From Candidatus Saccharibacteria bacterium UBA6824 (GTDB taxonomy: Bacteria > Patescibacteriota > Saccharimonadia > Saccharimonadales > UBA10212): 64,000 bases of DNA. Below the pieces are notes generated by a model, which did no database searches, was not told where the DNA came from, and saw only the letters and a program-made list of their open reading frames with translations. Where the stretch lies: the NCBI GenBank assembly GCA_002452155.1, contig DKEK01000002.1, forward strand, positions 85,750 through 149,749, given 5' to 3'. A program made the translations under genes and the position numbers. Below are positions 6,557-55,515 of this stretch, one piece after another (the first letter of the stretch is position 1; each line of letters opens with the position of its first letter).

Positions 6557-7099
6557 GTGATGGCATTAAAAAAACACATCGCCGACGCCAGCCTGTACGT
6601 CTGGGCGTTACTTAGAATCGCATTTGGCTATATATTTTTATGGGCTTTTTTGGATAAGTTGTTTGGGCTTGGCTTTTCAACCTGCAGGGATAAAATAACA
6701 GCTGTTATTAGCGGCGGTTGTTCGCAGGCTTGGGCCCATGGCGGCTCGCCGACGAAGGGTTTTTTGGGCAACGCAACGACTGGACCGTTCAAGGACTTCT
6801 ACCATCACCTGGCCGGACAGATGTGGGTTAACTGGTTGTTCATGCTCGGCCTGCTAGTTATTGGGCTTGGTTTGCTACTCGGCATTTGGGTCCGCTTGGC
6901 AGCCTTTGCCGGCATTGTGATGATGTTACTGATGTGGAGTGCGCTGCTATGGCCGGTCAATGCGCCCGGTGTCGACGAGCATATTATCTACGCCTTAGCC
7001 CTGTTTGGCATAGCCCTAGTCGATGACAACCAGGTTTGGGGGCTACGCTCCTGGTGGCGCAAAACCCGCTTGGCCAAAGTCGCACCATTTCTCCGCTAG
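6557..7099 (+). CDS. DoxX-family membrane protein
   Basis: LLRIAFGYIFLWAFLDKL at the N-terminus is a DoxX signature; 4 TM helices. Confidence 0.4.
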   Translation: MMALKKHIADASLYVWALLRIAFGYIFLWAFLDKLFGLGFSTCRDKITAVISGGCSQAWAHGGSPTKGFLGNATTGPFKDFYHHLAGQMWVNWLFMLGLLVIGLGLLLGIWVRLAAFAGIVMMLLMWSALLWPVNAPGVDEHIIYALALFGIALVDDNQVWGLRSWWRKTRLAKVAPFLR

Positions 7100-7109
7100 T
7101 TTCTTGGCC

Positions 7110-8771
7110 TCAAAAATTCTCCCTGATGTGAGACATAGAAAAGTCCCAGTCGGCGTCGGTTTTTTTGTGGGGGTTAAAGATGTTTTCCGGGTCAAAGATT
7201 TTTTTGGCTTGGCGGAATAGCTCGACAATTTCTTTACCGTACATTTGTTCCAGCCACGGGCCGCGGATCATGCCGTCATTGTGTTCACCGGACAAGCTGC
7301 CGCCGTAACTTAGAATCAGTTCATTGACTTCGCGCATTGCCGGCGCCAGCTTGGCACGCTCCGCCGGTTCTTCGATCTTCATCAGTGGGATGACGTGGAA
7401 GTTACCGTCACCCATATGGCCGGCAATAGTTGCCAGTAGTCCATGCCTTTTTATAATTTCGCGCAGGCGCGGCAAAAACTCCGACAAACTAGCCGGTGGC
7501 ACGACTAAATCGTCTATAAACGGCGCTGTATGCTTGTTTTTGACTTTTTTCCGCAGCAGGTTAAAGCTCTCGCGGCGCATAATGCGAAACTTCCAGGCCT
7601 TGGCTTCGGTGCTGTCTTCTTCGGTTGCCTCCAGGTGAAATGGTTTTAAGCCCAAGCGCATGGCGTGGACCTTCTGGGCGACTTCTTCTGGTGTCTGGGC
7701 TGTATATTCAATCAGCAGTACCATTTTGGGTATGCCCTTCAGCAGCAGGAAAGCATCAGGAATCAGGCTCCACGCTAACTTAAACAAGCCCCCCCAGCCC
7801 AGGGTTTTACGGAAGTAAGGGAAGAATTTAATCGCCAACTCCAGCGTATAGTTGTCGAAGGCTTCAAAGCTGGCTGGTTTGGTGGGCGCCACCGTATTGA
7901 TGATTTCGCCCAGCTGGTTGAGGTTTTTCATAAAGCACACCAGCACACCGGAATGAGGCTTATCGTGCACCAGCCGAAACTCAATATCACCGATTAGACC
8001 GAGGGTACCTTGGGAGCCGGTAAATAGCTTGGTCAGATCAAACACCCCGGTTTTGCGGTCCCAGACATCCCACAAGTTGTAGCCGGTCGAGTTTTTGCTG
8101 ACATGCGGCTTGGCCTTTTTTATTTTGTCGTAGTTGGCCACGAGCAGGTCAAACATTTGTTTATATATTTGGCCTTCAAAATTATCTTGGGCCATTTTTG
8201 CTTCCAGCTCGTCTTTCTTGAGCGATTTTAATTCATACATTTGTCCGTCGGCTAATACAACACCTAGTTTGTTGACATAATCTTCGGTCTTACCGTACTC
8301 CAGCGACTTTTCGCCGCCGGCGTTGTTGGCCACCATGCCCCCCATCGCCGCCAGTTCGCGGCTGGCCGGGAAGCTAGGCAGCAGGGCGCCTTTTTGCAGC
8401 GTAGCTTTTTCGAAATCTCGGTAAAAAACGCCAGGCTGGGTACGAGCCGAAAAATCCTGCAGGTCTTCGATTCTGTTCATATAGCGCGTAAAGTCAACGA
8501 TCACAGAATCGTTGATGGCGCCGCCGGACATGCAGGTACCGCCACTGCGGGCAGTCAATGATAGATTTGATACCTTGGCCCGCATTAAGTGGGCGCTTAT
8601 CACCAGCCGCTGCAGATCCTGCGTATTCTTCGGGAACACTACCAGCTCGGGTACCATCTCAAACAGAGAGGCGTCGTGACTATAAAATTCCCGCGTTCGG
8701 TCGGAGCCATCAATGTCGCCCTCAAAACCCCTTTTTTTTAGCAGATCGATAAATGGGCCCACCGTACTCAT
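7110..8771 (-). CDS. FAD-linked oxidase (GlcD / D-lactate dehydrogenase family)
   Basis: FAD_binding_4-like N-terminus (VVFPKNTQDLQRLV...SLTARSGGT...GG) with a C-terminal FAD-oxidase domain. Start moved to the ATG at 8771, which has an AAGGG SD; the longest ORF begins at a TTG at 8816. Confidence 0.75.
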   Translation of the reverse strand: MSTVGPFIDLLKKRGFEGDIDGSDRTREFYSHDASLFEMVPELVVFPKNTQDLQRLVISAHLMRAKVSNLSLTARSGGTCMSGGAINDSVIVDFTRYMNRIEDLQDFSARTQPGVFYRDFEKATLQKGALLPSFPASRELAAMGGMVANNAGGEKSLEYGKTEDYVNKLGVVLADGQMYELKSLKKDELEAKMAQDNFEGQIYKQMFDLLVANYDKIKKAKPHVSKNSTGYNLWDVWDRKTGVFDLTKLFTGSQGTLGLIGDIEFRLVHDKPHSGVLVCFMKNLNQLGEIINTVAPTKPASFEAFDNYTLELAIKFFPYFRKTLGWGGLFKLAWSLIPDAFLLLKGIPKMVLLIEYTAQTPEEVAQKVHAMRLGLKPFHLEATEEDSTEAKAWKFRIMRRESFNLLRKKVKNKHTAPFIDDLVVPPASLSEFLPRLREIIKRHGLLATIAGHMGDGNFHVIPLMKIEEPAERAKLAPAMREVNELILSYGGSLSGEHNDGMIRGPWLEQMYGKEIVELFRQAKKIFDPENIFNPHKKTDADWDFSMSHIRENF

Positions 8772-13928: not shown

Positions 13929-13980
13929 AACTGTATTCTTCACCAAAACGGGGGTATAATTAGGTCAGATTGGAGGGTAT

Positions 13981-14238
13981 ATGGCACAAAAAACACTCGG
14001 CAAAGTCATTCACTACTACGACCACCTAGGCGTCGCGGTAATAAAGTTGGCTAAGGGCGCTGCCCTAAAAAAGGGTGACAGGGTGGAGTTCAAAGGTAGC
14101 AGTACCGACTTTACCCAGAAGGTTGTTTCGCTGCAGGCGGACCACGAAGACGTCGATTCAGTCAAGGCCGGCGACGACTTTGGCCTAAAAGTCGATAAGC
14201 CCGTCCGCGAGGGCGACGCCGTCCACCCAGCCGCCTAG
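13981..14238 (+). CDS. Small beta-barrel protein resembling translation-factor domain II (EF-Tu domain 2-like)
   Basis: GKVIHYYDHLGVAVIKL...KKGDRVEF.G..TDFTQKVVSLQ.DHEDVDSVKAGDDFGLKV pattern; GGAGGG SD. Confidence 0.4.
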   Translation: MAQKTLGKVIHYYDHLGVAVIKLAKGAALKKGDRVEFKGSSTDFTQKVVSLQADHEDVDSVKAGDDFGLKVDKPVREGDAVHPAA

Positions 14239-16830: not shown

Positions 16831-17421
16831 GTGGGGATGTTTGGTAAGTTCAAGGTTTGGTTCTCGGCTCTATCTTCAATTGGAAAAGTAGGAGTCATCG
16901 CGGGCGCATCGATTCTTACAATAGGTGTAGCCAGTGCGGCCGGCCATTTATCAAAGACCCAATCACCAGTAGTCCCGCCTCCAACAGTTAAGTCCGACAG
17001 CATCGAGCACAAAACGATCATGACGACTGAAGCAGTAGCGTTTGACACAAAAACCGTTGACGATCCTACCCTGGCCGCCGGCACGGACAAAACACAAACC
17101 GAAGGCGTAAACGGCGTAAGAACCAAAACTTGGGATGTCACCTATACCAACGGCAAAGAAACCGGCCGAATAGTGGTGAATGATGGAATCACTACAGCCC
17201 CAGTAACCAAAATCATAGTACATGGTACATACGTCGCCCAGGCTCTAAATTGCCCCAATGGCACTTATGTAAATTCAGTAGGTAATACAGTCTGCAGCCC
17301 ATACAGCGCACCGAGGGTACCAGTCGGTGCAACCGCTCAGTGTAGAGACGGCACATATAGTTTCAGCCAATCCCGAAGTGGCACATGCTCCCACCACGGC
17401 GGTGTCGCTGTCTGGCTCTAG
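16831..17421 (+). CDS. Membrane-anchored G5 domain plus DUF3761 domain protein
   Basis: N-terminal TM, a G5-like segment (TEAVAFDTKTVDDPTLAAGTDKTQTEGVNG...NGKETG), and a C-terminal CRDGTYSFSQSRSGTCSHHGGV (DUF3761 signature). Confidence 0.55.
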   Translation: MGMFGKFKVWFSALSSIGKVGVIAGASILTIGVASAAGHLSKTQSPVVPPPTVKSDSIEHKTIMTTEAVAFDTKTVDDPTLAAGTDKTQTEGVNGVRTKTWDVTYTNGKETGRIVVNDGITTAPVTKIIVHGTYVAQALNCPNGTYVNSVGNTVCSPYSAPRVPVGATAQCRDGTYSFSQSRSGTCSHHGGVAVWL

Positions 17422-17900: not shown

Positions 17901-18551
17901 ATGGAAACGCAGCAGCAACCAGTGGCAGAACATCAGCCGCAAAAGATGCACAAAGACAGAAACATGAAAGGCAAAATGATAATGTTCTTGCTGGCTATTA
18001 TATTGCTAGGCGTGGGCGCCGGCGCCGGCTGGTGGTGGCGCGACAAAGACGCTAAAGCTTTGGATAAGACCAAGCAGTCCCAGATAACTACCTTAGGCAG
18101 CCAGATAACCCAGCTTCAAAAAGATCTGGTGGACGCTAAAAAAACTACGACCACGACTACTACGACCACCACGACCTCGACCGGCGTCCGACCCAGTGCA
18201 GCAACCTTAAGTAGCATCCAAGATGCCATTAAATCCGGCAACACCGCCGCTTTGGAGGGCTACATGGCATCGACCGTCAAGGTAATTATCGCCGCCAGTG
18301 AGGGCGTCGGTGACCGAACGCCGGCCCAAGCCGTTAGTGATCTTAAATACCTGGACAACGCCACCGATCCTTGGGACTTTGCCCTGCCGGCCGCTACACT
18401 TGCGGCCTACCAGACCGGAGGCTACAAGCAATATTTCCCAACCACCGCCCTGGTGGGTAAATCGGCCAATAAATACGTAGTGTCTTTTCAGTTTGATAGC
18501 AACGGCAAAATCAGCGGCGTCTTTATGGCCGCCAGCTCTGACTTGCTGTAA
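17901..18551 (+). CDS. Hypothetical membrane-anchored protein with a poly-Thr linker
   Basis: TM at residues 25-45, a TTTTTTTTTTTST linker, then a globular C-terminal domain; AAAGGGGTG SD. Confidence 0.4.
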   Translation: METQQQPVAEHQPQKMHKDRNMKGKMIMFLLAIILLGVGAGAGWWWRDKDAKALDKTKQSQITTLGSQITQLQKDLVDAKKTTTTTTTTTTTSTGVRPSAATLSSIQDAIKSGNTAALEGYMASTVKVIIAASEGVGDRTPAQAVSDLKYLDNATDPWDFALPAATLAAYQTGGYKQYFPTTALVGKSANKYVVSFQFDSNGKISGVFMAASSDLL

Positions 18552-38272: not shown

Positions 38273-39517
38273 ATGTTTTTTAAGAAAAAAACTGAGGGTC
38301 AAGGCAATAGCCCAAACGAGACATTGGCGGTTAGCGATAAGCTGGCCAAAGAGCAGGGGCTTAGCTCGGAATTTATATTAGGCGCCATTGAGGACGGCGT
38401 AGTCATGGTCGGCGCCGACAATATAATCCACCTGTTTAACCCAGCTGCTGGCCAAATTACCGGTTGGCCGGCGAATGAGGCTGTGGGCCTGGAATTCCAC
38501 AGTGTGTTGCCGCTGGTAGATGAACATGGCAGCCCTATCGCCGCAACTTTGCATCCCTTTGCCGCAGTTTTAGCCAGCGGTAAGGGCGTACGCGACAGCA
38601 AAAGCTTTTTGCAGACACGTAGCGGCAAGTTAATCCCTATTTCATTAATCGTCTCACCGATGGCCGGTAGCGTCGAGCGGGCACCGCGCGGTGTAGTCGG
38701 CGTTTTTCGCGACATCACCACCGAAAAGCAGGAAGAAGCTCGCCGCAGCGAATTTGTCAGTACTGCCAGCCACGAAATGCGGACGCCTATAGCGGCTATC
38801 GAAGGCTATCTGTCACTGGCGCTTAATCCCAAAGTGGCGCAGATCGACCCCCACGCCAAAAGTTATCTCGAAAAAGCCCACGTCGCCACCCAACATCTGG
38901 GTGAGTTGTTCGCCGACCTTCTAACCAGTTCTAAGGCCGAGGATGGCCGGATTGCCAGCTATCCGACAGCCGTCGAAGTCGGTGAGATCGTAGCCCAAGC
39001 CGCCGAGACCGGCCGCTTTAACGCCCAGAAGAAGGGCCTACAGCTCAAATATCAGGTCAGCAGCAACAAAGAAGTAACCGGCGGCAAGGTTATCCGGCCG
39101 CTATTTTACGCCTTCGTGGACCCCAACCGCTTGCGCGAAGTGCTGCAAAATCTAATTGACAACGCCATAAAGTACACGCCCGAAGGCACTATTACAGTAG
39201 CCTTAACCGGCGACAACAGTGTCATCCAAATGCAGGTAAAGGACACCGGTGCCGGTATACCCGAAGAGGACATCCCCCATCTGTTCCAGAAGTTCTACCG
39301 GGTAGATAGTTCAATGACCAGATCAATCGGCGGTACCGGCTTGGGCCTATACATCAGCCGCAAGATCGTCGAGATGTACAACGGCCATATCTGGGTCGAA
39401 AGCCAGCTTGATAAGGGCAGTACCTTCTTCATAAACTTGCCGCGGCTGAGCGCCGAACAGGCACTGGCAATGCAAAAGAACCAGGCCAATGTTGTCAGCC
39501 CTTTGGAACAACACTAA
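38273..39517 (+). CDS. Cytoplasmic PAS-domain sensor histidine kinase
   Basis: No TM; a PAS-like N-terminus; H-box SHEMRTPI, N-box LIDNAIKY, GTGLGLYI. Confidence 0.85.
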   Translation: MFFKKKTEGQGNSPNETLAVSDKLAKEQGLSSEFILGAIEDGVVMVGADNIIHLFNPAAGQITGWPANEAVGLEFHSVLPLVDEHGSPIAATLHPFAAVLASGKGVRDSKSFLQTRSGKLIPISLIVSPMAGSVERAPRGVVGVFRDITTEKQEEARRSEFVSTASHEMRTPIAAIEGYLSLALNPKVAQIDPHAKSYLEKAHVATQHLGELFADLLTSSKAEDGRIASYPTAVEVGEIVAQAAETGRFNAQKKGLQLKYQVSSNKEVTGGKVIRPLFYAFVDPNRLREVLQNLIDNAIKYTPEGTITVALTGDNSVIQMQVKDTGAGIPEEDIPHLFQKFYRVDSSMTRSIGGTGLGLYISRKIVEMYNGHIWVESQLDKGSTFFINLPRLSAEQALAMQKNQANVVSPLEQH

Positions 39518-41866: not shown

Positions 41867-42523
41867 ATGGCACTTTTCCAGAAAAAACCGCAGGTTAGTG
41901 ACACGATGCCGCTTTATACAATCGGTTCGAATAAGACAGTTTTGATTATTGGTTTGGGCAACCCCGGCCAGCAGTACGCTGGTACGCGCCATAATGTCGG
42001 CTTTGAAGTTTTGGACCATTTCGCAAAAAAGAATGATTTTCCGGCTTGGATGGCCAAAAGGGACTTGAAGTGTGAGCTAACAATGGCTAATCTAGGTGAA
42101 AACCGGGTTATTTTATGTAAGCCTACTACGTTTATGAACCTCAGCGGTGAAGCCGGCCAAGCGGTGCAACATTTCTACCGGGTTTATAACCCCCAGACGC
42201 TGGTTGTTTACGACGAGCTGGCAATTGCGTTCGGACAGCTTAGAACCCGCCTGGGCGGCTCTGACGCCGGCCACAACGGCGTAAAATCATTGATCGCCCA
42301 CCTAGGCGAAGATTTCGGCCGCCTGAGGATCGGCATTGGCCAACAAACCGCTGAAAAAACCGCCCCCTCGTCCAAAGAAGCCAATACCAGCAAATATGTG
42401 CTTAGTAAGTTCAGCAAAGAAGAGCAGGCGATACTCCCCAAAATCCTACAGGAAGCCAACGGCCTTATCACCGAATACATCTTTGGCGGCGCCTTGCCGA
42501 ACGACACCCGCACAGTTTTATAA
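41867..42523 (+). CDS. pth: Peptidyl-tRNA hydrolase
   Basis: LIIGLGNPGQQYAGTRHNVGF...DELAIAFGQLR...GHNG. Confidence 0.9.
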   Translation: MALFQKKPQVSDTMPLYTIGSNKTVLIIGLGNPGQQYAGTRHNVGFEVLDHFAKKNDFPAWMAKRDLKCELTMANLGENRVILCKPTTFMNLSGEAGQAVQHFYRVYNPQTLVVYDELAIAFGQLRTRLGGSDAGHNGVKSLIAHLGEDFGRLRIGIGQQTAEKTAPSSKEANTSKYVLSKFSKEEQAILPKILQEANGLITEYIFGGALPNDTRTVL

Positions 42524-43133
42524 AATACAACTCGCTGGAGAGCCTTTATGGCCGGGTTCCTAAAAGACCTCCAGAGGGGGTGGGCACCGCTGGAGGCCTA
42601 TTACACCCTTCAACCCCACCATAAGCGAAGCGTCGAAAGTATCCGCTATAAAAGCTAAGATATTCGTGCCGCCCCTGGATAAATCCAGGGAACATCGTTG
42701 CCGACCCGCCGACCCACATTGAACGTAGAGTCATCCTGCAGCCGTCCGAAGATGGAGCAGGGCAGAGTTAAAGGGAATAAACTGTTTAAGATTTCCCACC
42801 CAATTTTTAAGCTTAAACAGTTGTATTTGCTTTTGGCGGTTACTATACTCATGTTAAAACCAAAAAATTGGGTGGGACCAACGGGTAAGTGGAGGGTATC
42901 AACTTAAACGCTAGATCTTAAACACTTAATAACAAGTGCAAAAAACACTTATCATTTGGGGGTATAAGGTGCGTAATCCTAACGTAATGAGGATTACGAG
43001 TTGCAATTTTAGCAGAAATGTGACATTAAGTCAATAGTAGAAAATGAAACTAAATGAAAGTCAATAGCCTTAAGCGCTTTCCTATCCCTTTGAGCCAAGT
43101 ACACAAAAAAATTAGTCGTGCTAACATAAAAAT

Positions 43134-43361
43134 ATGAAGAAAAAGCAGAGTTGGTGGGAGGAAGTATTAAAAGCAGTAGGCTATATTCTTGGCTCTTTCT
43201 TTATTGGAGCAACTTTCCTTATTGCTGTTGAAGCAATTGGTTCAACGCTGGCTGACAAAAACATTAGCCTTTGGGAATGGTATACCTTCTCAACCTTAAC
43301 CGGAGGATTTCTGTGGTGGTTATGGCAAACTTTAGTACCTGAAAATAAGGACGATAATTAG
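43134..43361 (+). CDS. Small two-TM membrane protein inside the mobile element
   Basis: 75-aa ORF with two hydrophobic helices and a Trp-rich C-terminus (WWLWQ). Confidence 0.3.
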   Translation: MKKKQSWWEEVLKAVGYILGSFFIGATFLIAVEAIGSTLADKNISLWEWYTFSTLTGGFLWWLWQTLVPENKDDN

Positions 43362-43392
43362 GCTATGAGCAAAAAACTCTTTAAAAGACTGA

Positions 43393-44310
43393 TTAAGACC
43401 GCTTCAACGCCCGTTCCAAAAGAACAGGACAAACAGCTTCAAAGCGGTGGTTATAACGAAAGACAAACTCCGAAACGTAAGAGTCCAAATACTTCGGAGA
43501 AACGTAGTGATAGGTCCCGTTGATAGAACGCTTTAGTTGCGACCAAAAGCCCTCTAAGTTGTTAGTATGTACGCCGTTTTCAACATAGTGCCCAACGCCA
43601 TGGTCTACAGTCAAGTGCTTGAAATCCCGGTGGGCATTTGTATATATTTTGCTCTTGTCAGTATGCAGAACAGCGTTAGGTTGTATGTTGGCCTTTAAGT
43701 AGGGCATAACTGTAAAGGCACTTGCACCGTCTACGACTTTGGCCTTTATTTTGCCACGCTTTTCAGCAATGCCGACAACCGGCACTTTATTATCATAGGA
43801 ATGAGCCTGTCGTCTGCGGCCACCAATATATGTTTCATCAGCTTCAACTACCCCAATCAATCTTTCAGCGTCCTGTTTCATGAGTAGGCGTATCTGTTTA
43901 GCCATGCGCCAAGCGGTTTTGTACGTTACGCCGAGGTGTCGCTCAAGTTCTTTGGCCGATACCCCGTTCTTAGCAACTGAAACTAAATAGATGGCATGAA
44001 ACCAGCTAGTTAGGGGAGTCCGGGAGCTACGGAATATCGTATTGGCTAGAGGGTACAACTGATAACCACAGTGCATACAAGCATATGACTGGCGTTTCTT
44101 GACCCGGTAGAACTTAGTTTCAGCCGCACACTTCGGACAGAACTTTAAGTCGCCGTAGCGGTTATCAAAGACGGCTTGCAGGCAAGCATTGTCGTCTGGA
44201 TATTCCGCTTGGAACTGCTTGTAAGTGTATCTCATACCTCTAATTGTACAGGCTAGATACTTGTCTGTCAAGGAATTAAGTAAGGAGTAAGTGTTGTACT
44301 TTTTGTTCAC
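43393..44310 (-). CDS. IS1595-family transposase (zinc-ribbon plus DDE domain)
   Basis: N-terminal C..C...C..C zinc ribbon (CPKCAA...CMHCGY) then the DDE region (VEADETYIGG...HTDKSKIY...NLEGFWSQLKR). Confidence 0.8.
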   Translation of the reverse strand: MNKKYNTYSLLNSLTDKYLACTIRGMRYTYKQFQAEYPDDNACLQAVFDNRYGDLKFCPKCAAETKFYRVKKRQSYACMHCGYQLYPLANTIFRSSRTPLTSWFHAIYLVSVAKNGVSAKELERHLGVTYKTAWRMAKQIRLLMKQDAERLIGVVEADETYIGGRRRQAHSYDNKVPVVGIAEKRGKIKAKVVDGASAFTVMPYLKANIQPNAVLHTDKSKIYTNAHRDFKHLTVDHGVGHYVENGVHTNNLEGFWSQLKRSINGTYHYVSPKYLDSYVSEFVFRYNHRFEAVCPVLLERALKRS

Positions 44311-45605
44311 TAATCGTCAAGTAAACCTACGTCTTTTAAACGTTTGTAGAAGAGTTTCCCCTGCAATCCAGTCTCAATTACTTCTTCCATATCACTATGA
44401 TTTTTTATGTAGTGACTTTCGCTGAAAGTTATGCCTACGCTTTCTTCGGGTTTGGTGTGACGCATTACCTCACGGCTGGACACTCGATGCTTATAAGGCA
44501 GTTTTTGGTCTTTACCATAATCTTTCCATGCATTAGGAGTCATGCCGGTAACACCAACCGTAATATCGCTAGTAACAATATCGTATCTGTCACCTACCGC
44601 TTTAATCTTGCTGTGAAATCTCTTATTTTCATTCACTTGAAAGTTTCTGGACTCATATCTTTTAAACAGAGCTACGACCTGTTCAGCGGTGCTGATACCT
44701 AGCCCTTCGCTTACTTTTGCAAGCTCACTGGCCGCCTTATCGCTATTGCCGGATATGGCTAGTCCAACGGCTTCTAGAGTTGAACTTGCAAGATTGTAGA
44801 GCTGTTCAGCACGAGCTGGATAGTCTGGAGTACGGCCACTTTGTTTGAACGCCACCAGCAACTCAGGCACTAATTCAAATGGCAGAAGTGGGGTAAAACC
44901 TTTTTCGAACCCCTTGACGAATGGTCCACTGATTTGTGGACCATCAAGTTTACGGTTGTGGATACTTACCACAAACTTTTTAAAACTTGTTCCTTGCACC
45001 CACTTAGAAAATGCGTCTGACCGCACTCCGATAAAGTCGGCTATGGACGGAAGGCTGAATAAGAAATAGCTTTTTACTTCGACTCCCGCCACAACGTCAG
45101 TTTTGACCTCAACCAGCCTAATCTCACTGGGGAAAACTCCGGCAGGAACTTTAGGGCTTCTAGTGGGGCCTATGGCTTGTTCTATGGCTCCCTCAACATT
45201 AACTGGCTCATCGAGTACTTCCACTACCGCTTCGGGTTCTGACATAATCCACTCCTTAATACCCAGAAGCTTCTTAATTAGGTCTTCTTCATTCTCTTTA
45301 TCTGTTTCAACGGCTACGTAGCGACCAAAAATGCCATCAGCTACCATTCGTTTTGGCTCAGCAGAATTATCATAAAAGACATTGGCGTTTTTTAGCTCCG
45401 GGACTGTACTATAAATCCTAGCCTTCAGTTCATTTATATAGGCCTCGACTACCTTGTTTGGTAGAAAACATTGCTGACCTCTTAATGCAAAAGCCCTAAT
45501 TTTACCAGCCTTCTGGAAGCGATAAGTACGTTGGCGATAGAAGTATTTTGCGCCTAGCTCGGCCTCAAGCTCAACGGCGGTCATCAGTTTATACATATTA
45601 CTCAT
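44310..45605 (-). CDS. Hypothetical 431-aa protein with an N-terminal excisionase/MerR-like HTH (HTH_17-like), translationally coupled to the transposase
   Basis: LMTAVELEAELGAKYFYRQRTYRFQKAGKIRAF fits the HTH_17 pattern. A one-nucleotide overlap joins its stop to the transposase start. Low GC. No other domain recognised. Confidence 0.45.
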   Translation of the reverse strand: MSNMYKLMTAVELEAELGAKYFYRQRTYRFQKAGKIRAFALRGQQCFLPNKVVEAYINELKARIYSTVPELKNANVFYDNSAEPKRMVADGIFGRYVAVETDKENEEDLIKKLLGIKEWIMSEPEAVVEVLDEPVNVEGAIEQAIGPTRSPKVPAGVFPSEIRLVEVKTDVVAGVEVKSYFLFSLPSIADFIGVRSDAFSKWVQGTSFKKFVVSIHNRKLDGPQISGPFVKGFEKGFTPLLPFELVPELLVAFKQSGRTPDYPARAEQLYNLASSTLEAVGLAISGNSDKAASELAKVSEGLGISTAEQVVALFKRYESRNFQVNENKRFHSKIKAVGDRYDIVTSDITVGVTGMTPNAWKDYGKDQKLPYKHRVSSREVMRHTKPEESVGITFSESHYIKNHSDMEEVIETGLQGKLFYKRLKDVGLLDD

Positions 45606-45695
45606 GTCAGTTACACTCCTGTTACAGTTATACTATATATTGTAACACACCCAATCAAGAGCCGCTTAAGCGTTTTTACAGTTTATACTTGGCTC

Positions 45696-46556
45696 ATGGG
45701 TATACACGTCCTTAAGCGTGATGATGCCGATTTCCCAATTATTTTGCGGCAGATCCCGTCGCCGCCGAAACAGTTATTTTGGCTCGGCGTGCACCCCAAT
45801 ACACTAATTAGCCAGCCGCGGGTAGCTATCGTCGGCAGCCGCAAAGTCTCCGCCTATGGCCGGACCGTAACTGAACGCCTAGCCGGCGAGCTGGCGAGAT
45901 TGGGTGTGGTTATTGTTAGCGGCCTGGCGCTTGGAGTTGACGCCGTAGCCCATCAAGCAACCCTAGACGCTGGCGGCCTGACCATGGCTGTACTGCCAAC
46001 CAACCTGGACAGCATTTACCCGGCCTCGCACTTTAACCTGGCTAGACAAATCATCGCTAGCGGTGGCGGCTTAATTTCCGAATACCCGCCCGGAACTGAA
46101 GCCTTTCCGTCTAACTTCATCGCCCGCAACCGGCTTGTCAGCGGCCTGGCAGATGTCCTGCTCATCACTGAAGCCGCCAAAAATAGTGGCACCATGCATA
46201 CCGCCGGCTTTGCGCTCGAGCAGGGCAGAACGGTTATGGCGGTGCCAGGCAATATAAACAGCCCCGGCAGCGAAGGCTGCAACAACCTAATAAAAGCCGG
46301 GGCCACGCCGGTAACCGCTACAGAGGATGTTCTTTTTGTCCTTGGGCTAAGATCTGGCGCGGGGGAGCAGACCAGCATCTTCCGAGGCACAGACAACGAG
46401 CAAAAGATTTTCGATCTCATTAGGCGCGGCGTTGCTGACCAAGAAGAAATAGCCGTAGCCGCTCGGCTGGAGGGCCCGGCCCTGAGTGCCGCCCTGACAA
46501 TGCTGGAAATTAATGGCTACATCCGGGCCGAGCGCGGCAGCTGGACATTGGTTTAG
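45696..46556 (+). CDS. dprA: DNA-processing protein DprA (Smf)
   Basis: Rossmann-like core, GLALGVDAVAHQATL...GGLISEYPPGT...RNRLVSGL, and a C-terminal winged helix. The ATG sits at the last base of the IS right inverted repeat. Confidence 0.85.
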   Translation: MGIHVLKRDDADFPIILRQIPSPPKQLFWLGVHPNTLISQPRVAIVGSRKVSAYGRTVTERLAGELARLGVVIVSGLALGVDAVAHQATLDAGGLTMAVLPTNLDSIYPASHFNLARQIIASGGGLISEYPPGTEAFPSNFIARNRLVSGLADVLLITEAAKNSGTMHTAGFALEQGRTVMAVPGNINSPGSEGCNNLIKAGATPVTATEDVLFVLGLRSGAGEQTSIFRGTDNEQKIFDLIRRGVADQEEIAVAARLEGPALSAALTMLEINGYIRAERGSWTLV

Positions 46557-54312: not shown

Positions 54313-55515
54313 TTAATTTTTGGCAACATCGAGCAGAATATCGGCTAGCTTGGCAGCGGCATCAGGTCGGGCCAGCGAGCCAATATTGTGCTCTAGCTGC
54401 TGGCGCCGCTGCTTATTTTTCAGCAGGGCGTCTAATGTGCTGAGCAACTGCTCCGGCTTAACGTCATTAGGCAGAATCTCAGTGGCGGCGTTTGTTGTAA
54501 ATTCTTCAGCATTTTTCATCTGGTGTCCGCCGCTTAGGAAAGGACTGGGAATTATAACGGCGGCTTTGCGTTGGATGGCTAGTTCAGCTAAGGTCGTGGC
54601 CCCTGCCCTGGCCAGCACTACGTCGGCTGCACCGCTATAGGCATAAAAATCACTAGAGAAACCCAGCACCCTCACCGACTCGGGCATATCAGGGCCAAGT
54701 AGCTTTAGATATTGGTCGGCTACCCTGTCCTGATGGCCAGAGCCGCTGATATGAATAATCTGCAGTTTGGGATTTTGTTTGAGTAATTTAGGTGATATTG
54801 CCACCATTAGCTCGTTTATAGTACGGGAGCCATGGCCGCCACCGGATACAAATAACATCTGGGCATCAGCCGGCAGGCCAATTTGACGCTTTAGTGCCTT
54901 TTTCTGCTCGGGATCGACCATTTTAACCCGCTCGTCCAGGGGTATACCAACGTAGCGAATGCTGTCTTTAGAATAGGGGTAATACCGCGGCGGCATCCCG
55001 GCGGCATGGACCACAGCCCAGCGTCCAATCAGGCGGTTAGCCAGGCCCGGCACGGCATCGGAGTCGTGGGTAACGATTGGTACGCCGCGTAGGCGAGCGG
55101 CAATTCCGACCGGCACTACCACGTAGCCGCCTTTGCTAAAGACCACGTCCGGCTTATATTTTCCGAGTAGCCGCAGGGCGGTGAGAGTACCAAAAAGAAC
55201 CTTAAAAATATCACGAAAATTGAGTAGCAGCGTTTTTATATCGCTCAGATGGGACAGCAGGCTTTCATCGTGGTAGCGGCGAAATTTACCCGAGCTCAGC
55301 CGGCAGACTTTGTCAAAAGCCGGCTCAGCCGCCGGCGAAAGGTCAATTTGCTCACCCTTTAGGCCAATGTAGATGACCAGGCACCGGGGGTCTTTGGCTT
55401 TAAGTGCGCGGGCGAGTGGTAAGAGAGGGGTTATATGTCCCCCGGAGCCGCCGCCCGTTAAGATTATTTTGGTCTGATGAGCCCGCACCGGAGCCCGTTT
55501 TTGGTTCTTGGACAT
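54313..55515 (-). CDS. murG: UDP-N-acetylglucosamine--N-acetylmuramyl-(pentapeptide) pyrophosphoryl-undecaprenol N-acetylglucosamine transferase
   Basis: ILTGGGSGGHITP N-terminal motif and the GT28 C-terminal domain. Confidence 0.9.
   Translation of the reverse strand: MSKNQKRAPVRAHQTKIILTGGGSGGHITPLLPLARALKAKDPRCLVIYIGLKGEQIDLSPAAEPAFDKVCRLSSGKFRRYHDESLLSHLSDIKTLLLNFRDIFKVLFGTLTALRLLGKYKPDVVFSKGGYVVVPVGIAARLRGVPIVTHDSDAVPGLANRLIGRWAVVHAAGMPPRYYPYSKDSIRYVGIPLDERVKMVDPEQKKALKRQIGLPADAQMLFVSGGGHGSRTINELMVAISPKLLKQNPKLQIIHISGSGHQDRVADQYLKLLGPDMPESVRVLGFSSDFYAYSGAADVVLARAGATTLAELAIQRKAAVIIPSPFLSGGHQMKNAEEFTTNAATEILPNDVKPEQLLSTLDALLKNKQRRQQLEHNIGSLARPDAAAKLADILLDVAKN

What the first reader, a model, noticed from the sequence alone, without database searches (positions are those of the whole stretch)
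42524..42900. ORF-free 375-nt highly structured segment between pth and the mobile element: candidate ncRNA or integration hotspot
No ORF of 60 aa or more lies on either strand, yet the sequence is dense in secondary-structure signals. There is a 7-bp stem CCTCCAG...CTGGAGG (42568-42596), a CCCTGGA-TAAA-TCCAGGG hairpin (42674-42691), tandem GCCGACCC GCCGACCC (42700-42715), a CCTGC...GCAGG stem around GUCCGAAGAUGGAG, and a 13-nt long-range inverted repeat CCCACCCAATTTT / AAAATTGGGTGGG (42795-42807 versus 42864-42876). GC is 55-60% until about 42890 and then collapses into the IS. A segment of this length and structure immediately 5' of a mobile element is where a tmRNA, RNase P RNA or other ncRNA serving as an integration target would sit. 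It does not match the obvious candidates by eye, so it may be a different or divergent RNA.
Basis: seen in the sequence. Interest (0 to 1): 0.55.

Follow-up and report, generated by a model that had tools for sequence, protein, structure and literature searches.

The report
New conserved structured RNA in Saccharibacteria
The apparently empty stretch after pth is most of a roughly 440-nt non-coding RNA gene on the opposite strand; it is kept with compensatory base-pair changes in all 71 related Saccharibacteria loci that could be read in full, matches no known RNA family, and the unchanging loop of its last hairpin also appears in dozens of phage genomes.

Summary
The structure signals are real, but the strand, the extent and the link to the mobile element were misread. 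Window 42554-42999 (minus strand) is a stand-alone RNA gene. It has a near-consensus promoter (TTGACT-17-TGCTAAAAT, 43034-43006) and ends in a hairpin plus U-run about 40 nt from the pth stop. 71 Saccharibacteria loci carry it (324-505 nt) between pth and dprA. A 63-pair model is 91% paired against 35-53% in slid controls, with 39 compensatory pairs, and its G·U pairs fit only the minus strand. Rfam 15 and ARAGORN find nothing, and none of the defining features tested for tmRNA, RNase P, SRP or 6S RNA was met. The "IS" does not begin at 42900. A 2.6-kb IS1595 element (43077-45709, 9-bp duplication) sits in codon 8 of dprA, not in the RNA gene.

The invariant 15-nt loop of the 3' hairpin (CGGUGCCCACCCCCU) recurs in 53 viral contigs, each time on a different, covarying stem. 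In two of them it is grafted onto a Y-RNA-like tRNA mimic. The loop therefore looks like a portable recognition module.

The mechanism is unproven. My best guess is that the C-rich, anti-Shine-Dalgarno-like loops pair with GGUGGG-type ribosome-binding sites, as in RNAIII. A protein-binding handle is about equally likely. I found no prior description.

The parts
43029..43034 (-). -35 box TTGACT of the RNA promoter (family consensus GTATTGACA)
   Evidence: 10/12 match with TG extension; conserved in all 71 full-length loci
43006..43014 (-). Extended -10 TGCTAAAAT. The transcription start is inferred at about 43000 (+/-3); it was not measured.
42554..42999 (-). The RNA gene as aligned (446 nt). 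The likely transcript runs from about 43000 to about 42562 (about 440 nt).
42973..42997 (-). P1, the 5' hairpin GUAAUCCU...AGGAUUAC
   Evidence: helix 1: all 9 pairs show compensatory changes
42958..42970 (-). Conserved single-stranded ACCUUAUACCCCC (ACCU invariant). Its partner is unknown. On the plus strand it reads GGGGGTATAAGGT, which may also be a dprA promoter.
42928..42956 (-). P2, a variable hairpin (absent or different in some genomes)
42909..42927 (-). P3 5' strand (family consensus GUUAGAUUGUUUAAGAG)
   Evidence: helices 2-3: 17 pairs, about 95% paired; pair 211:467 is UA in 37 sequences and AU in 32
42886..42906 (-). P4, a hairpin with a covarying stem and an invariant C-rich loop (UACCCUCCAC, 42891-42901) that contains CCUCC
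   Evidence: helix 4
42795..42876 (-). Present in only about half of the family.
42776..42792 (-). P3 3' strand (AUCUUAAACAGUUUAUU; family consensus CUCUUAAACAAACUAAC)
42767..42775 (-). P6 5' strand CCCUUUAAC
   Evidence: helix 5: 99.8% paired; the terminal pair is CG in 65, AU in 4 and GC in 2 sequences
42733..42762 (-).
42700..42717 (-).
42673..42690 (-). Variable hairpin CCCUGGA-UUUA-UCCAGGG
42629..42670 (-). P8, helix GGCACGAA.../...UUCGACGCU enclosing a variable hairpin
   Evidence: helix 6: 88.6% paired, 3 of 5 pairs compensatory
42614..42620 (-). Invariant GGUGGG(G), perfectly complementary to CCCACC in the terminal loop. Candidate pseudoknot; both sides are invariant, so covariation cannot test it.
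   Evidence: helix 7
42606..42613 (-). P6 3' strand (G)UUGAAGGG, followed by conserved UGUAAU (42600-42605)
42565..42599 (-). Terminal hairpin: a 10-bp covarying stem, the invariant 15-nt loop CGGUGCCCACCCCCU (42575-42589), then a U-run (42562-42565). The same loop sits on unrelated stems in 53 viral contigs.
   Evidence: helix 8 (10 of 11 pairs compensatory)
43054..43076 (+). Context, not part of the RNA: relic of the original dprA start (MKVNSLKR...), cut off by the IS
43077..45709 (.). Context, not part of the RNA: IS1595-family element (2633 bp). It has a 9-bp target duplication CCTTAAGCG (43068-43076 and 45710-45718) and terminal repeats at 43083-43101 and 45686-45704.

Best explanation
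Identity (well supported): window about 43000 to 42562, minus strand, is a stand-alone gene for a roughly 440-nt, multi-helix non-coding RNA that is conserved across Saccharibacteria. It is transcribed from its own near-consensus sigma-70 promoter. It ends in a hairpin plus U-run that faces the end of pth.

Architecture: a 5' hairpin (P1) and a conserved single strand. Two long-range helices (P3, P6) each close a sub-domain. There are two hairpins whose loops never change and are C-rich: UACCCUCCAC (P4) and CGGUGCCCACCCCCU (the terminal hairpin). An invariant GGUGGG can pair with the CCCACC tip of the terminal loop.

Mechanism (inferred, about 0.3): the RNA acts in trans through these exposed, anti-Shine-Dalgarno-like loops. 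The terminal loop would pair with G-rich ribosome-binding sites of the type GGUGGG / GGGGGUGGGCA and so control their translation, much as S. aureus RNAIII uses the C-rich loops of its hairpins, including its terminator hairpin. Candidate targets in the window are the secreted G5/DUF3761 protein gene at 16837, the membrane-protein gene at 17901 and the histidine-kinase gene at 38273. The internal GGUGGG would act as a competing lid. Phages carry the same loop on their own stems, which marks it as a self-contained recognition module that they copy to reach the same partner.
For: Identity:
- The core (42559-42637) is about 90% identical in relatives whose Pth protein is only 50-75% identical.
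- 72 of 80 loci carry the invariant 13-mer, once each and always in the same orientation. 71 have the full gene with its promoter.
- Covariation on 63 pairs: 91.3% paired against 35-53% slid; 39 compensatory pairs; score 0.305 against at most 0.085; 0 of 500 shuffles as good.
- G·U pairs are frequent on the minus strand and would be C·A mismatches on the plus strand.
- Minus-strand fold z = -4.0. Promoter.
- The gene stays intact although an IS separates it from dprA here, and it persists where dprA is missing (L044, L063, L074).

The loop as a module:
- The exact 17-mer occurs in 53 viral contigs, against 1 and 12 for composition-matched controls.
- Flanking stems are a median of 8 bp, against 0-1 bp in the controls.
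- The 50 distinct viral hairpins are 93.6% paired with covariation 1.108.
- A model built only from the viral hairpins finds each host locus exactly once, at the RNA's 3' end.

Pairing hypothesis:
- The best two of 67 translation-start regions in the window give duplexes of -25.4 and -21.3 kcal/mol (median -8.2). Shuffled loops reach those values in 6 and 17 of 400 trials.
- In the first set of 9 sequences of the G5 gene (the window plus 8 metagenome orthologues), 7 keep at least 8 nt of complementarity at the ribosome-binding site. L086 has 11 nt (GGGGGUGGGCA); L084 and L085 have AGGUGGGCAA.
- Mean duplex is -19.2, against -15.5 +/- 1.3 for shuffled loops (10 of 2000 as good) and -12.0 for the canonical 16S tail.
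- GGUGGG(CA) recurs at the histidine-kinase ribosome-binding site in many loci.
- Published surveys report a canonical anti-SD for CPR bacteria other than some Parcubacteria (PMC9297842, PMC6107228). GGUGGGCA is therefore not explained by ordinary SD pairing.
Against: - No expression data. The transcript ends are inferred from sequence only.
- The target idea was formed after seeing the window's own genes, and the statistics are modest (p about 0.005-0.04).
- In a second, prospective sample of G5 orthologues, only 1 of 5 new genomes kept the complementary site. Overall about 8 of 15 do.
- The complementary motif is not enriched at start sites in the phage fragments.
- G-rich ribosome-binding sites pair with any C-rich probe to some degree.
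- An absolutely invariant 15-nt loop with a conserved upper stem is as typical of protein recognition as of base pairing.
- No Saccharibacteria 16S 3' end could be read here.
Confidence: 0.45

Rival explanations
1. The identity is the same, but the RNA works as a protein-binding scaffold. The invariant terminal hairpin (conserved upper stem plus CCCACC tip) would be a handle for a conserved cellular protein. A KH-type or other C-rich-RNA binder is one candidate (PNPase, Era or KhpB, since the loop resembles the 16S 3' tail GAUCACCUCCUU). Phage copies would be decoys or adaptors for that protein.
For: - The loop is invariant in 71 hosts and at 54 phage sites while the stems are free to change. 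This pattern is typical of loop-specific protein sites.
- In L194 and L195 the hairpin caps the acceptor-like stem of a YrlA-like Y RNA (44.2 and 37.7 bits). From general knowledge, Y RNAs work by tethering proteins.
- The candidate mRNA target is only half conserved.
- The loop can form G2-C14, G3-C13 and G5-C12, leaving a defined hexaloop.
Against: No candidate protein was identified. No protein gene co-occurs with the hairpin in the phage fragments; its neighbours are diverse. The KH/Era/PNPase idea rests on sequence resemblance and recall only.
Confidence: 0.3
2. It is a cis-antisense or promoter-interference regulator of dprA. The RNA and dprA are transcribed divergently from overlapping promoters, and the RNA's 5' end would be antisense to the dprA leader.
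For: - The position is fixed, with the invariant 13-mer 356-560 nt upstream of dprA in nearly all loci.
- The -35 box lies 20 nt from the original dprA ATG.
- The conserved ACCUUAUACCCCC reads GGGGGTATAAGGT on the dprA strand and resembles the GGGGGTATAAT promoter at 13950.
Against: - This does not explain about 400 nt of covarying structure or the invariant 3' loop.
- The gene is intact here, although 2.6 kb of IS now separates it from dprA. It is also intact in loci with 0.6-0.8 kb inserted (L053, L079) and in loci without dprA (L044, L063, L074).
- Phages carry the 3' module without dprA.
Confidence: 0.07
3. It is an extremely diverged form of a universal RNA (RNase P RNA, tmRNA, SRP RNA or 6S RNA) that the covariance models miss.
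For: - The size range (324-505 nt), class-wide conservation and strong promoter resemble housekeeping RNAs.
- CPR RNase P RNAs are known to escape default thresholds (PMC8172020).
- One complete Nanosynbacter genome is annotated with only 2 ncRNAs (PMC8830319).
Against: - No hit to any of these families, even at E <= 10 on short segments of two representatives. Nothing at gathering score in the window or 11 loci.
- ARAGORN finds no tmRNA in the window or 35 loci.
- RNase P CR-I occurs in 0 of 71 and CR-V in 1 of 71 RNAs. ACCA near the 3' end occurs in 1 of 71.
- The 5' and 3' ends form local hairpins, not a closing or acceptor stem.
- Both circular Saccharimonadia genomes in PMC8172020 did yield an RF00010-type RNase P RNA.
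Confidence: 0.03
4. It is not an RNA gene. It would be only a pth 3' UTR and bidirectional terminator, a degraded protein gene or small ORF, or the attachment-site remnant of a mobile element.
For: - The terminal hairpin lies within 6-40 nt of the pth stop and has an A-run upstream on the plus strand.
- Mechanical ORFs of 62-69 aa exist.
- Partial second copies of the hairpin lie next to the gene in L034, L043 and L033.
Against: - The element stays with dprA, not pth, when insertions separate them (L012, L029, L046, L060).
- Its own promoter is conserved in 71 of 71 loci.
- Long-range helices covary.
- No frame is conserved, and the longest ORFs range from 14 to 109 aa. There are no Pfam hits.
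- The phage copies have unrelated stems, so they are not att remnants of this gene.
- Genes downstream on the same strand, where present, are unrelated to each other, so it is not a cis leader.
Confidence: 0.02

Closest known systems
Staphylococcus aureus RNAIII (Rfam RF00503)
   Same: A large (514 nt), many-hairpin, stand-alone regulatory RNA. From general knowledge, the C-rich loops of several of its hairpins, including the terminator hairpin, pair with Shine-Dalgarno regions of mRNAs for surface proteins and a regulator. Here there are two invariant C-rich loops, one of them in the terminator-like hairpin, and the candidate targets are a secreted protein, a membrane protein and a sensor kinase.
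   Different: No sequence or structure homology (no Rfam hit). No embedded peptide gene and no agr-like neighbourhood. The long-range helices and a probable pseudoknot are unlike RNAIII. Target pairing is only predicted here.
Large bacterial structured ncRNAs of unknown or partly known function (OLE, raiA motif, ROOL, GOLLD, HEARO)
   Same: Several hundred nucleotides, intricate covarying structure, lineage-restricted, found by comparative genomics, and in some cases linked to phages. From general knowledge, raiA-motif RNAs often lie next to the competence gene comFC; this RNA lies next to dprA.
   Different: No covariance model for any of them matches. The host clade is different (Saccharibacteria/CPR). 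A portable invariant-loop hairpin shared with phages has not, to my knowledge, been described for those classes.
Bacterial Y RNAs / YrlA (Rfam RF02553)
   Same: In two viral contigs the same invariant-loop hairpin is part of a YrlA-like tRNA mimic. Y RNAs are modular, often phage-borne, and use separate modules to bind different partners.
   Different: The Saccharibacteria RNA itself gives no YrlA hit. It has no terminal Ro-binding stem formed by its 5' and 3' ends and no tRNA-like T/D-arm module. No rsr gene was seen nearby. The viral YrlA hits are below Rfam's gathering score (44 and 38 against 69 bits).
tmRNA and RNase P RNA
   Same: Similar length, class-wide conservation, pseudoknot-rich appearance and a strong promoter. 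The flanks are prone to insertions, as at tRNA and tmRNA genes.
   Different: No tRNA-like domain, CCA end or tag frame. No CR-I or CR-V/P4 motifs. No model or ARAGORN hit. The neighbouring IS made its target duplication in dprA, not in the RNA.
C-rich-loop sRNAs of Gram-positive bacteria (RsaE/RoxS)
   Same: From general knowledge, these use exposed C-rich motifs in hairpin loops as seeds against G-rich ribosome-binding sites.
   Different: They are about 100 nt and unrelated in sequence, and their seeds are short CCCC motifs rather than a 15-nt invariant loop with a conserved upper stem. No Rfam match here.

Membership tests
tmRNA (RF00023 and permuted forms) | tRNA-like domain: 5' and 3' ends pair into an acceptor stem, with a T-arm and a 3' CCA | tested here: not met
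   ARAGORN finds no tmRNA in the window or 35 related loci. The 5' and 3' ends form separate local hairpins. A T-loop-like motif occurs in 6 of 71 RNAs and ACCA near the 3' end in 1 of 71.
tmRNA (RF00023 and permuted forms) | Match to the family covariance model | tested here: not met
   No hit at gathering score. At E <= 10 there is only an 8.7-bit plus-strand fragment at 42927-42998, on the wrong strand and covering 59 of 374 model positions.
Bacterial RNase P RNA (RF00010/RF00011) | Conserved regions CR-I (GAGGAAAGUCC) and CR-V (ACAGAAnnnGGCUUA) that form P4 | tested here: not met
   With up to 2 substitutions allowed, CR-I is found in 0 of 71 RNAs and CR-V in 1 of 71.
Bacterial RNase P RNA (RF00010/RF00011) | Match to the family covariance model, even below threshold as reported for CPR | tested here: not met
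   No RF00010 or RF00011 hit at E <= 10 in window 42300-43200 or L016 6600-7150. PMC8172020 recovered RF00010-type RNAs in both of its Saccharimonadia genomes.
SRP RNA (RF00169/RF01854) | Domain IV hairpin with the conserved tetraloop and symmetric-loop motif; match to the model | tested here: not met
   No hit at E <= 10. My loose regular expression for the motif matched 71 of 71 RNAs and is therefore uninformative. The verdict rests on the covariance models.
6S RNA (RF00013) | Single long rod closed by the 5' and 3' ends, with a central bubble | tested here: not met
   No model hit. The covariation-supported structure is multi-domain with two long-range helices and no closing stem between the 5' and 3' ends.
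Y RNA-like / YrlA (RF02553) | tRNA-like module plus a Ro-binding terminal stem; match to the model | tested here: not met
   The host RNA gives no YrlA hit. Only two viral contigs carrying the shared hairpin give sub-threshold YrlA hits.
RNAIII-type base-pairing regulator (functional class, not a homology family) | Exposed C-rich hairpin loops complementary to ribosome-binding sites of target mRNAs | tested here: inconclusive
   Complementarity is found and partly conserved, with modest significance. It is lost in about half of the orthologues.
RNAIII-type base-pairing regulator (functional class, not a homology family) | Demonstrated effect on target translation or stability | not testable with these tools
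   This needs reporter fusions or RIL-seq in a cultured Saccharibacterium.
Intrinsic terminator | G+C-rich hairpin followed directly by a U-run at the end of a transcription unit | tested here: met
   There is a 10-bp stem plus UUUU at 42562-42599 on the minus strand. The scan tool did not call it because the loop (15 nt) exceeds its 3-8 nt limit. The invariant loop is not explained by termination alone.
cis-regulatory leader / riboswitch | A conserved downstream gene on the same strand | tested here: not met
   In most loci the next feature is the convergent pth. Where genes are inserted downstream they are unrelated to each other: an acyltransferase, a reverse transcriptase and unknowns.
Integration target (tRNA/tmRNA-type att site) | A mobile element abuts the RNA gene and duplicates part of it | tested here: not met
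   The IS1595 target duplication CCTTAAGCG lies in dprA. The phage copies of the loop have unrelated stems.

The most novel reading that the evidence does not exclude
Saccharibacteria possess a previously unrecognised housekeeping-grade RNA. Its invariant 3' hairpin would be a portable 'address' read by a core cellular partner. One candidate reading is that the loop mimics the 16S rRNA 3' tail (anti-Shine-Dalgarno region) and so governs a set of mRNAs with GGUGGG-type start sites. Their phages would have copied this address repeatedly, as free mini-hairpins, inside mRNAs and grafted onto Y-RNA-like tRNA mimics, to hijack or jam the same partner. That would be a new axis of host-phage RNA mimicry in the candidate phyla radiation.
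Probability: 0.25. Interest if true: 0.9.

Novelty: categorically new. Interest (0 to 1): 0.8.

Why it matters
Saccharibacteria have tiny genomes (0.7-1 Mb), short intergenic regions and, according to a 2022 transcriptome preprint on TM7x, no validated small RNAs. An RNA of 324-505 nt kept at one locus across the class, with invariant stretches of 13-17 nt and a near-consensus promoter, is conserved about as strongly as RNase P RNA or tmRNA, yet it belongs to no described family. It is therefore a strong candidate for a lineage-defining piece of cell biology in a major uncultured radiation.

The shared hairpin gives an immediate experimental handle: a 15-nt loop that can be mutated, pulled down or used as bait. 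It also links host and phage RNA biology. Saccharibacteria can now be transformed genetically (PMC10633639), so the predictions are directly testable.

On the practical side, the gene should be added to annotation pipelines and to Rfam. It also warns against treating the pth-dprA spacer as a neutral site.

Tried and rejected
- **Known RNA families.** Rfam at gathering score on the whole window and 11 loci, and at E <= 10 on two representatives, gave only chance hits (ASpks, miRNA precursors, flavi_FSE) with no agreement between the two. ARAGORN for standard and permuted tmRNA found nothing.
- **T-box.** By eye the plus strand resembles the T-box motif (GGGUGGnACCGC). I dropped this because it is on the wrong strand, has one base too many and gives no model hit.
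- **Small protein.** A 35-aa plus-strand ORF with a GGAGA upstream, and the 62-69 aa ORFs, were rejected: no conserved frame, insertions inside them, and no Pfam hit.
- **RNAalifold pairing.** RNAalifold paired ACCUUAUACCCCC with GGUGGGUUGAAGGGU. I preferred CCCUUUAAC:GUUGAAGGG because its end pair shows three compensatory states. The partner of ACCUU remains unknown.
- **Phage att remnant.** I first read the viral hits as attP copies of the RNA's 3' end. The stems are unrelated and covary, so this was rejected.
- **Second viral probe.** GGTGGGTTGAAGGGTGT gave four chance hits in coding sequence and one real one, L172.
- **'Between two tRNA genes'.** My first reading of L194/L195 was wrong. 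ARAGORN finds no tRNA there; it is a YrlA-like RNA.
- **Cis leader.** Rejected.
- **Extended Shine-Dalgarno.** It is argued against only from the literature (PMC9297842, PMC6107228) and from ordinary GGAGG sites in the window that lack the UGGGCA extension.
- **Literature.** Searches for Saccharibacteria ncRNAs and for the invariant sequences themselves found no description.
- **Phage targets.** A search for the complementary motif at start sites in the phage fragments found no enrichment.
Full report
**What is at the coordinates.**
Two statements do not hold. The mechanical ORF list has ORFs of 62, 65 and 69 aa in the segment, although none has a Pfam match. The drop in G+C near 42890 is not the edge of the mobile element. 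Folding already hinted at the strand. The minus strand folds at -137.1 kcal/mol (z = -4.0, 0 of 100 shuffles as good, centroid close to the MFE). The plus strand folds at -120.2 kcal/mol (z = -2.7).

**Known families.**
Rfam 15 at gathering score finds only two tRNAs in the 64-kb window. At E <= 10 on 42300-43200 it returns only chance hits. ARAGORN finds no tmRNA. The same holds for 11 related loci, for a second representative at E <= 10, and for 35 loci with ARAGORN.

**Relatives.**
The Pth protein retrieved 80 loci, nearly all titled Saccharibacteria or Saccharimonadales, that share the order HK-RR-der-pth-[element]-dprA-topA. blastn with the segment showed a core (42559-42637) about 90% identical in genomes whose Pth is only 50-75% identical. 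The invariant 13-mer GGGGGTGGGCACC occurs once in 72 of 80 loci, always in the same orientation. The other eight contigs end 0-1.4 kb after pth. When insertions separate pth from dprA, the element stays with dprA, 356-560 nt upstream of its start.

**Extent, strand and ends.**
The closest relative, L043, aligns to window 42558-43076 (78.6%), well past 42900. Alignment of the whole spacer on the minus strand reveals a near-consensus promoter, GTATTGACA-N17-TGCTAAAAT. In the window the -35 box is at 43034-43029 and the -10 box ends at 43006. It is present in all 71 loci where the full element could be delimited. The 3' end is a hairpin followed by a U-run, about 40 nt from the pth stop and convergent with it. 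The lengths are 324-505 nt. The window copy is 42554-42999 as aligned, with a probable transcript of about 440 nt. The transcription start and end are inferred, not measured.

**Structure.**
On the 71-sequence alignment A1 I defined eight helices from RNAalifold and from inspection of conserved blocks, then had the pairs counted.
- Of the cells, 91.3% form standard pairs, against 35-53% when the 3' partners are slid by 1-3 columns.
- 39 of 63 pairs show changes on both sides.
- The covariation score is 0.305, against 0.047-0.085 for the slid versions, and 0 of 500 shuffles reach the observed values.
- The long-range helix P3 has UA in 37 sequences and AU in 32 at one pair.
- The long-range helix P6 (CCCUUUAAC:GUUGAAGGG) has CG 65, AU 4 and GC 2 at its end pair.
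- Ten of the 11 pairs of the terminal stem are compensatory, with up to five pair types each.
- G·U pairs are common in this orientation and would be C·A mismatches on the other strand, which fixes the strand.

Against this variable background some segments never change: ACCU in the 5' single strand, the P4 loop UACCCUCCAC, GGUGGG-UUGAAGGG, and the 15-nt terminal loop CGGUGCCCACCCCCU. GGUGGG is a perfect complement of the loop's CCCACC. That pseudoknot cannot be tested by covariation because both sides are invariant.

**Not coding, not a leader, not a known universal RNA.**
No reading frame is conserved. The longest ORFs range from 14 to 109 aa, and the open frames around the invariant core differ in every genome. 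Where a gene lies downstream on the same strand it differs from genome to genome: an acyltransferase, a reverse transcriptase, or unknowns. RNase P CR-I is found in 0 of 71 RNAs, CR-V in 1 of 71, and a CCA-type end in 1 of 71. Lui et al. (PMC8172020) recovered RF00010-type RNase P RNAs in both of their circular Saccharimonadia genomes, so that RNA is expected elsewhere in these genomes.

**The mobile element.**
Comparison with L043 shows that window 43054-43076 is the original start of dprA (MKVNSLKR...). An IS1595-family element of 2633 bp occupies 43077-45709. It carries a transposase with Pfam domains DDE_Tnp_IS1595 and Zn_ribbon_IS1595. It is flanked by a 9-bp direct repeat CCTTAAGCG and has terminal inverted repeats at 43083-43101 and 45686-45704. 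It interrupts dprA at about codon 8, and its right end supplies a new in-frame ATG (MGIHV-LKRDDADF...). The RNA gene and its promoter are untouched. Both flanks of the gene are nevertheless variable in other genomes, and one viral contig (L172) is a provirus lying beside a complete copy of the RNA gene.

**The loop is a portable module.**
The exact 17-mer GCGGTGCCCACCCCCTC occurs in 53 IMG/VR contigs, many of them 35-55 kb. Two composition-matched control 17-mers give 1 and 12 hits. In the viral contigs the 17-mer is flanked by inverted repeats that differ from contig to contig. The uninterrupted stem has a median of 8 bp, and 47 of 54 sites have at least 6 bp, against 0-1 bp for the controls. 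On 50 distinct viral hairpins, 93.6% of cells pair against 33-44% when slid. The covariation score is 1.108 against at most 0.22, and every variable stem position uses four to six pair types, including G·U. A covariance model built from the viral hairpins alone finds each host locus exactly once, at the 3' end of the RNA on the minus strand. In the window the hit is 42562-42602 (52 bits, E = 3e-13), and there is nothing else in the 64 kb.

The viral contexts are diverse:
- between a weakly portal-like ORF (P22_portal, 16 bits, below the Pfam cut-off) and an acidic ~270-aa ORF that I take to be a scaffold protein;
- after an amidase gene;
- followed by a U-run in 10 of 50 cases (background 5%), and preceded by a -10-like box in 13 of 50 (background 15%);
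- in L194 and L195, inside a YrlA-like Y RNA at 44.2 and 37.7 bits, both below Rfam's cut-off of 69, where it caps the acceptor-like stem.

That the phages infect Saccharibacteria is inferred, from L172 and from their composition.

**How it might work.**
The invariant loops are C-rich and resemble the anti-Shine-Dalgarno region: CACCCCCU in the loop against CACCUCCU in 16S rRNA, and CCUCC in the P4 loop.
- *In the window.* The best-pairing translation-start regions are a secreted G5/DUF3761 protein gene (16837; AAGGGGGUGGGGAUG; -25.4 kcal/mol) and the next membrane-protein gene (17901; -21.3). The median over 67 genes is -8.2, and the histidine-kinase gene (GAGGUGGGCAAUAUAAAUG) is also near the top. 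Shuffled loops match the best two values in 6 and 17 of 400 trials.
- *First ortholog set.* Seven of the nine G5-gene sequences compared (the window plus 8 metagenome orthologues) keep at least 8 nt of complementarity at the start site. These include GGGGGUGGGCA (11 nt) and AGGUGGGCAA, an extension that the canonical 16S tail does not explain.
- *Second, prospective sample.* Only one of five new genomes did so.
- *Histidine kinase.* GGUGGG(CA) recurs at its start site in many loci.
- *Literature.* The anti-SD CCUCCU is retained in CPR bacteria other than some Parcubacteria, and the 13-nt tail is almost invariant across prokaryotes (PMC9297842; PMC6107228).

I take this as moderate, partly post-hoc support for an RNAIII-like pairing mechanism (about 0.3). 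A loop-specific protein handle explains the absolute invariance and the Y-RNA graft at least as well (about 0.3). A role limited to dprA is unlikely, given the IS-separated and dprA-less loci.

**Verdict.**
The interpretation 'a different or divergent ncRNA' is right. The strand, the boundaries and the integration idea are wrong. I found no description of this RNA in Rfam 15 or in the searchable literature, so I rate it as a new RNA class whose function is still open.

Noticed in passing
window 43054-43076, 43077-45709, 45696-46556: The IS1595-family element is inserted at about codon 8 of dprA with a 9-bp target duplication (CCTTAAGCG). The IS right end supplies a new in-frame start, so DprA now begins MGIHV instead of MKVNS. 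A 27-aa relic ORF remains at the old start. dprA may now depend on an outward-reading IS promoter.
   Followed up: yes
window 44310-45605 (-), 43134-43361 (+), 43365-43523 (+): The IS carries passenger ORFs: a 431-aa protein with no Pfam match and two small plus-strand ORFs of 75 aa (hydrophobic) and 52 aa. Their function is unknown.
   Followed up: partly
L012 2205-4814; L029, L046, L050, L056, L060 (between pth and the RNA); L041, L051, L053, L079 (between the RNA and dprA): Both flanks of the RNA gene carry unrelated insertions of 0.6-3.2 kb in different genomes. L012 has a reverse transcriptase (RVT_1) with a 298-aa unknown protein directly downstream of the RNA. L046 has an acyltransferase. 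The spacer behaves as a variable-gene hotspot.
   Followed up: partly
L172 5738-8444 (IMGVR_UViG_3300049064_000004): A 38-kb 'viral' contig ends with a complete copy of the RNA gene, promoter included (7940-8372), next to RecT-like and other phage genes. It also has its own second hairpin with the invariant loop (6863-6879, opposite strand) upstream of recT. It is probably a provirus integrated beside the RNA gene.
   Followed up: partly
L194 9435-9592 (-), L195 7426-7533 (-): In two viral contigs the invariant-loop hairpin is embedded in a Y-RNA-like (YrlA, RF02553) tRNA mimic, where it caps the acceptor-like stem (44.2 and 37.7 bits, below the gathering score of 69). ARAGORN sees no tRNA there. 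No Ro/TROVE gene was seen in the adjacent ORFs.
   Followed up: partly
L034 6697-6742; L043 6672-6690; L033 about 6955-6970: Degenerate second copies of the terminal hairpin or loop lie just beyond the RNA's 3' end in a few genomes (L034: 23 bits with the hairpin model). They look like relics of local duplication.
   Followed up: partly
A1 columns 478-642 (L041, L067); the 3' domains of L041, L052, L057, L058, L062, L066, L067: Two genomes have an extra block of about 140-150 nt inserted after the P3 3' strand. A sub-group has a different, shorter 3' sub-domain (CUCGCAUUUUUUGAG...GGCCUUCAAGGUGGG). The long P5 hairpin is present in only about half of the family.
   Followed up: no
window 13948-13983 and 42958-42970: GGGGGTATAAT forms an evident promoter 20 nt before the 85-aa gene at 13981. 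The plus strand opposite the RNA's conserved ACCUUAUACCCCC reads GGGGGTATAAGGT. It could be the dprA promoter, which would make the two transcripts overlap at their 5' ends.
   Followed up: partly
window, many gene starts (for example 39566, 40538, 50240, 54313-55515): Many genes have a TATAAT-like box 5-20 nt before the ATG and no Shine-Dalgarno sequence, which suggests leaderless or very short-leader mRNAs. Only a minority have GGAGG-type sites.
   Followed up: no
window 13981-14238: The ribosome-binding site UGGAGGGUA of this 85-aa gene (weak EF-Tu domain 2 hit, below the Pfam cut-off) is a perfect 9-nt complement of the invariant P4 loop UACCCUCCA. Orthologues were not examined.
   Followed up: no
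L018 7172-7591; L044, L063, L074: dprA appears truncated or split in L018 and is not detected between the RNA and topA in L044, L063 and L074, although the RNA gene is intact there.
   Followed up: no
L010, L023, L069 (record titles): Three loci with the full Saccharibacteria gene order and the RNA come from bins titled Babeliales, Binatia and Limnocylindrales. These contigs are probably mis-binned.
   Followed up: no
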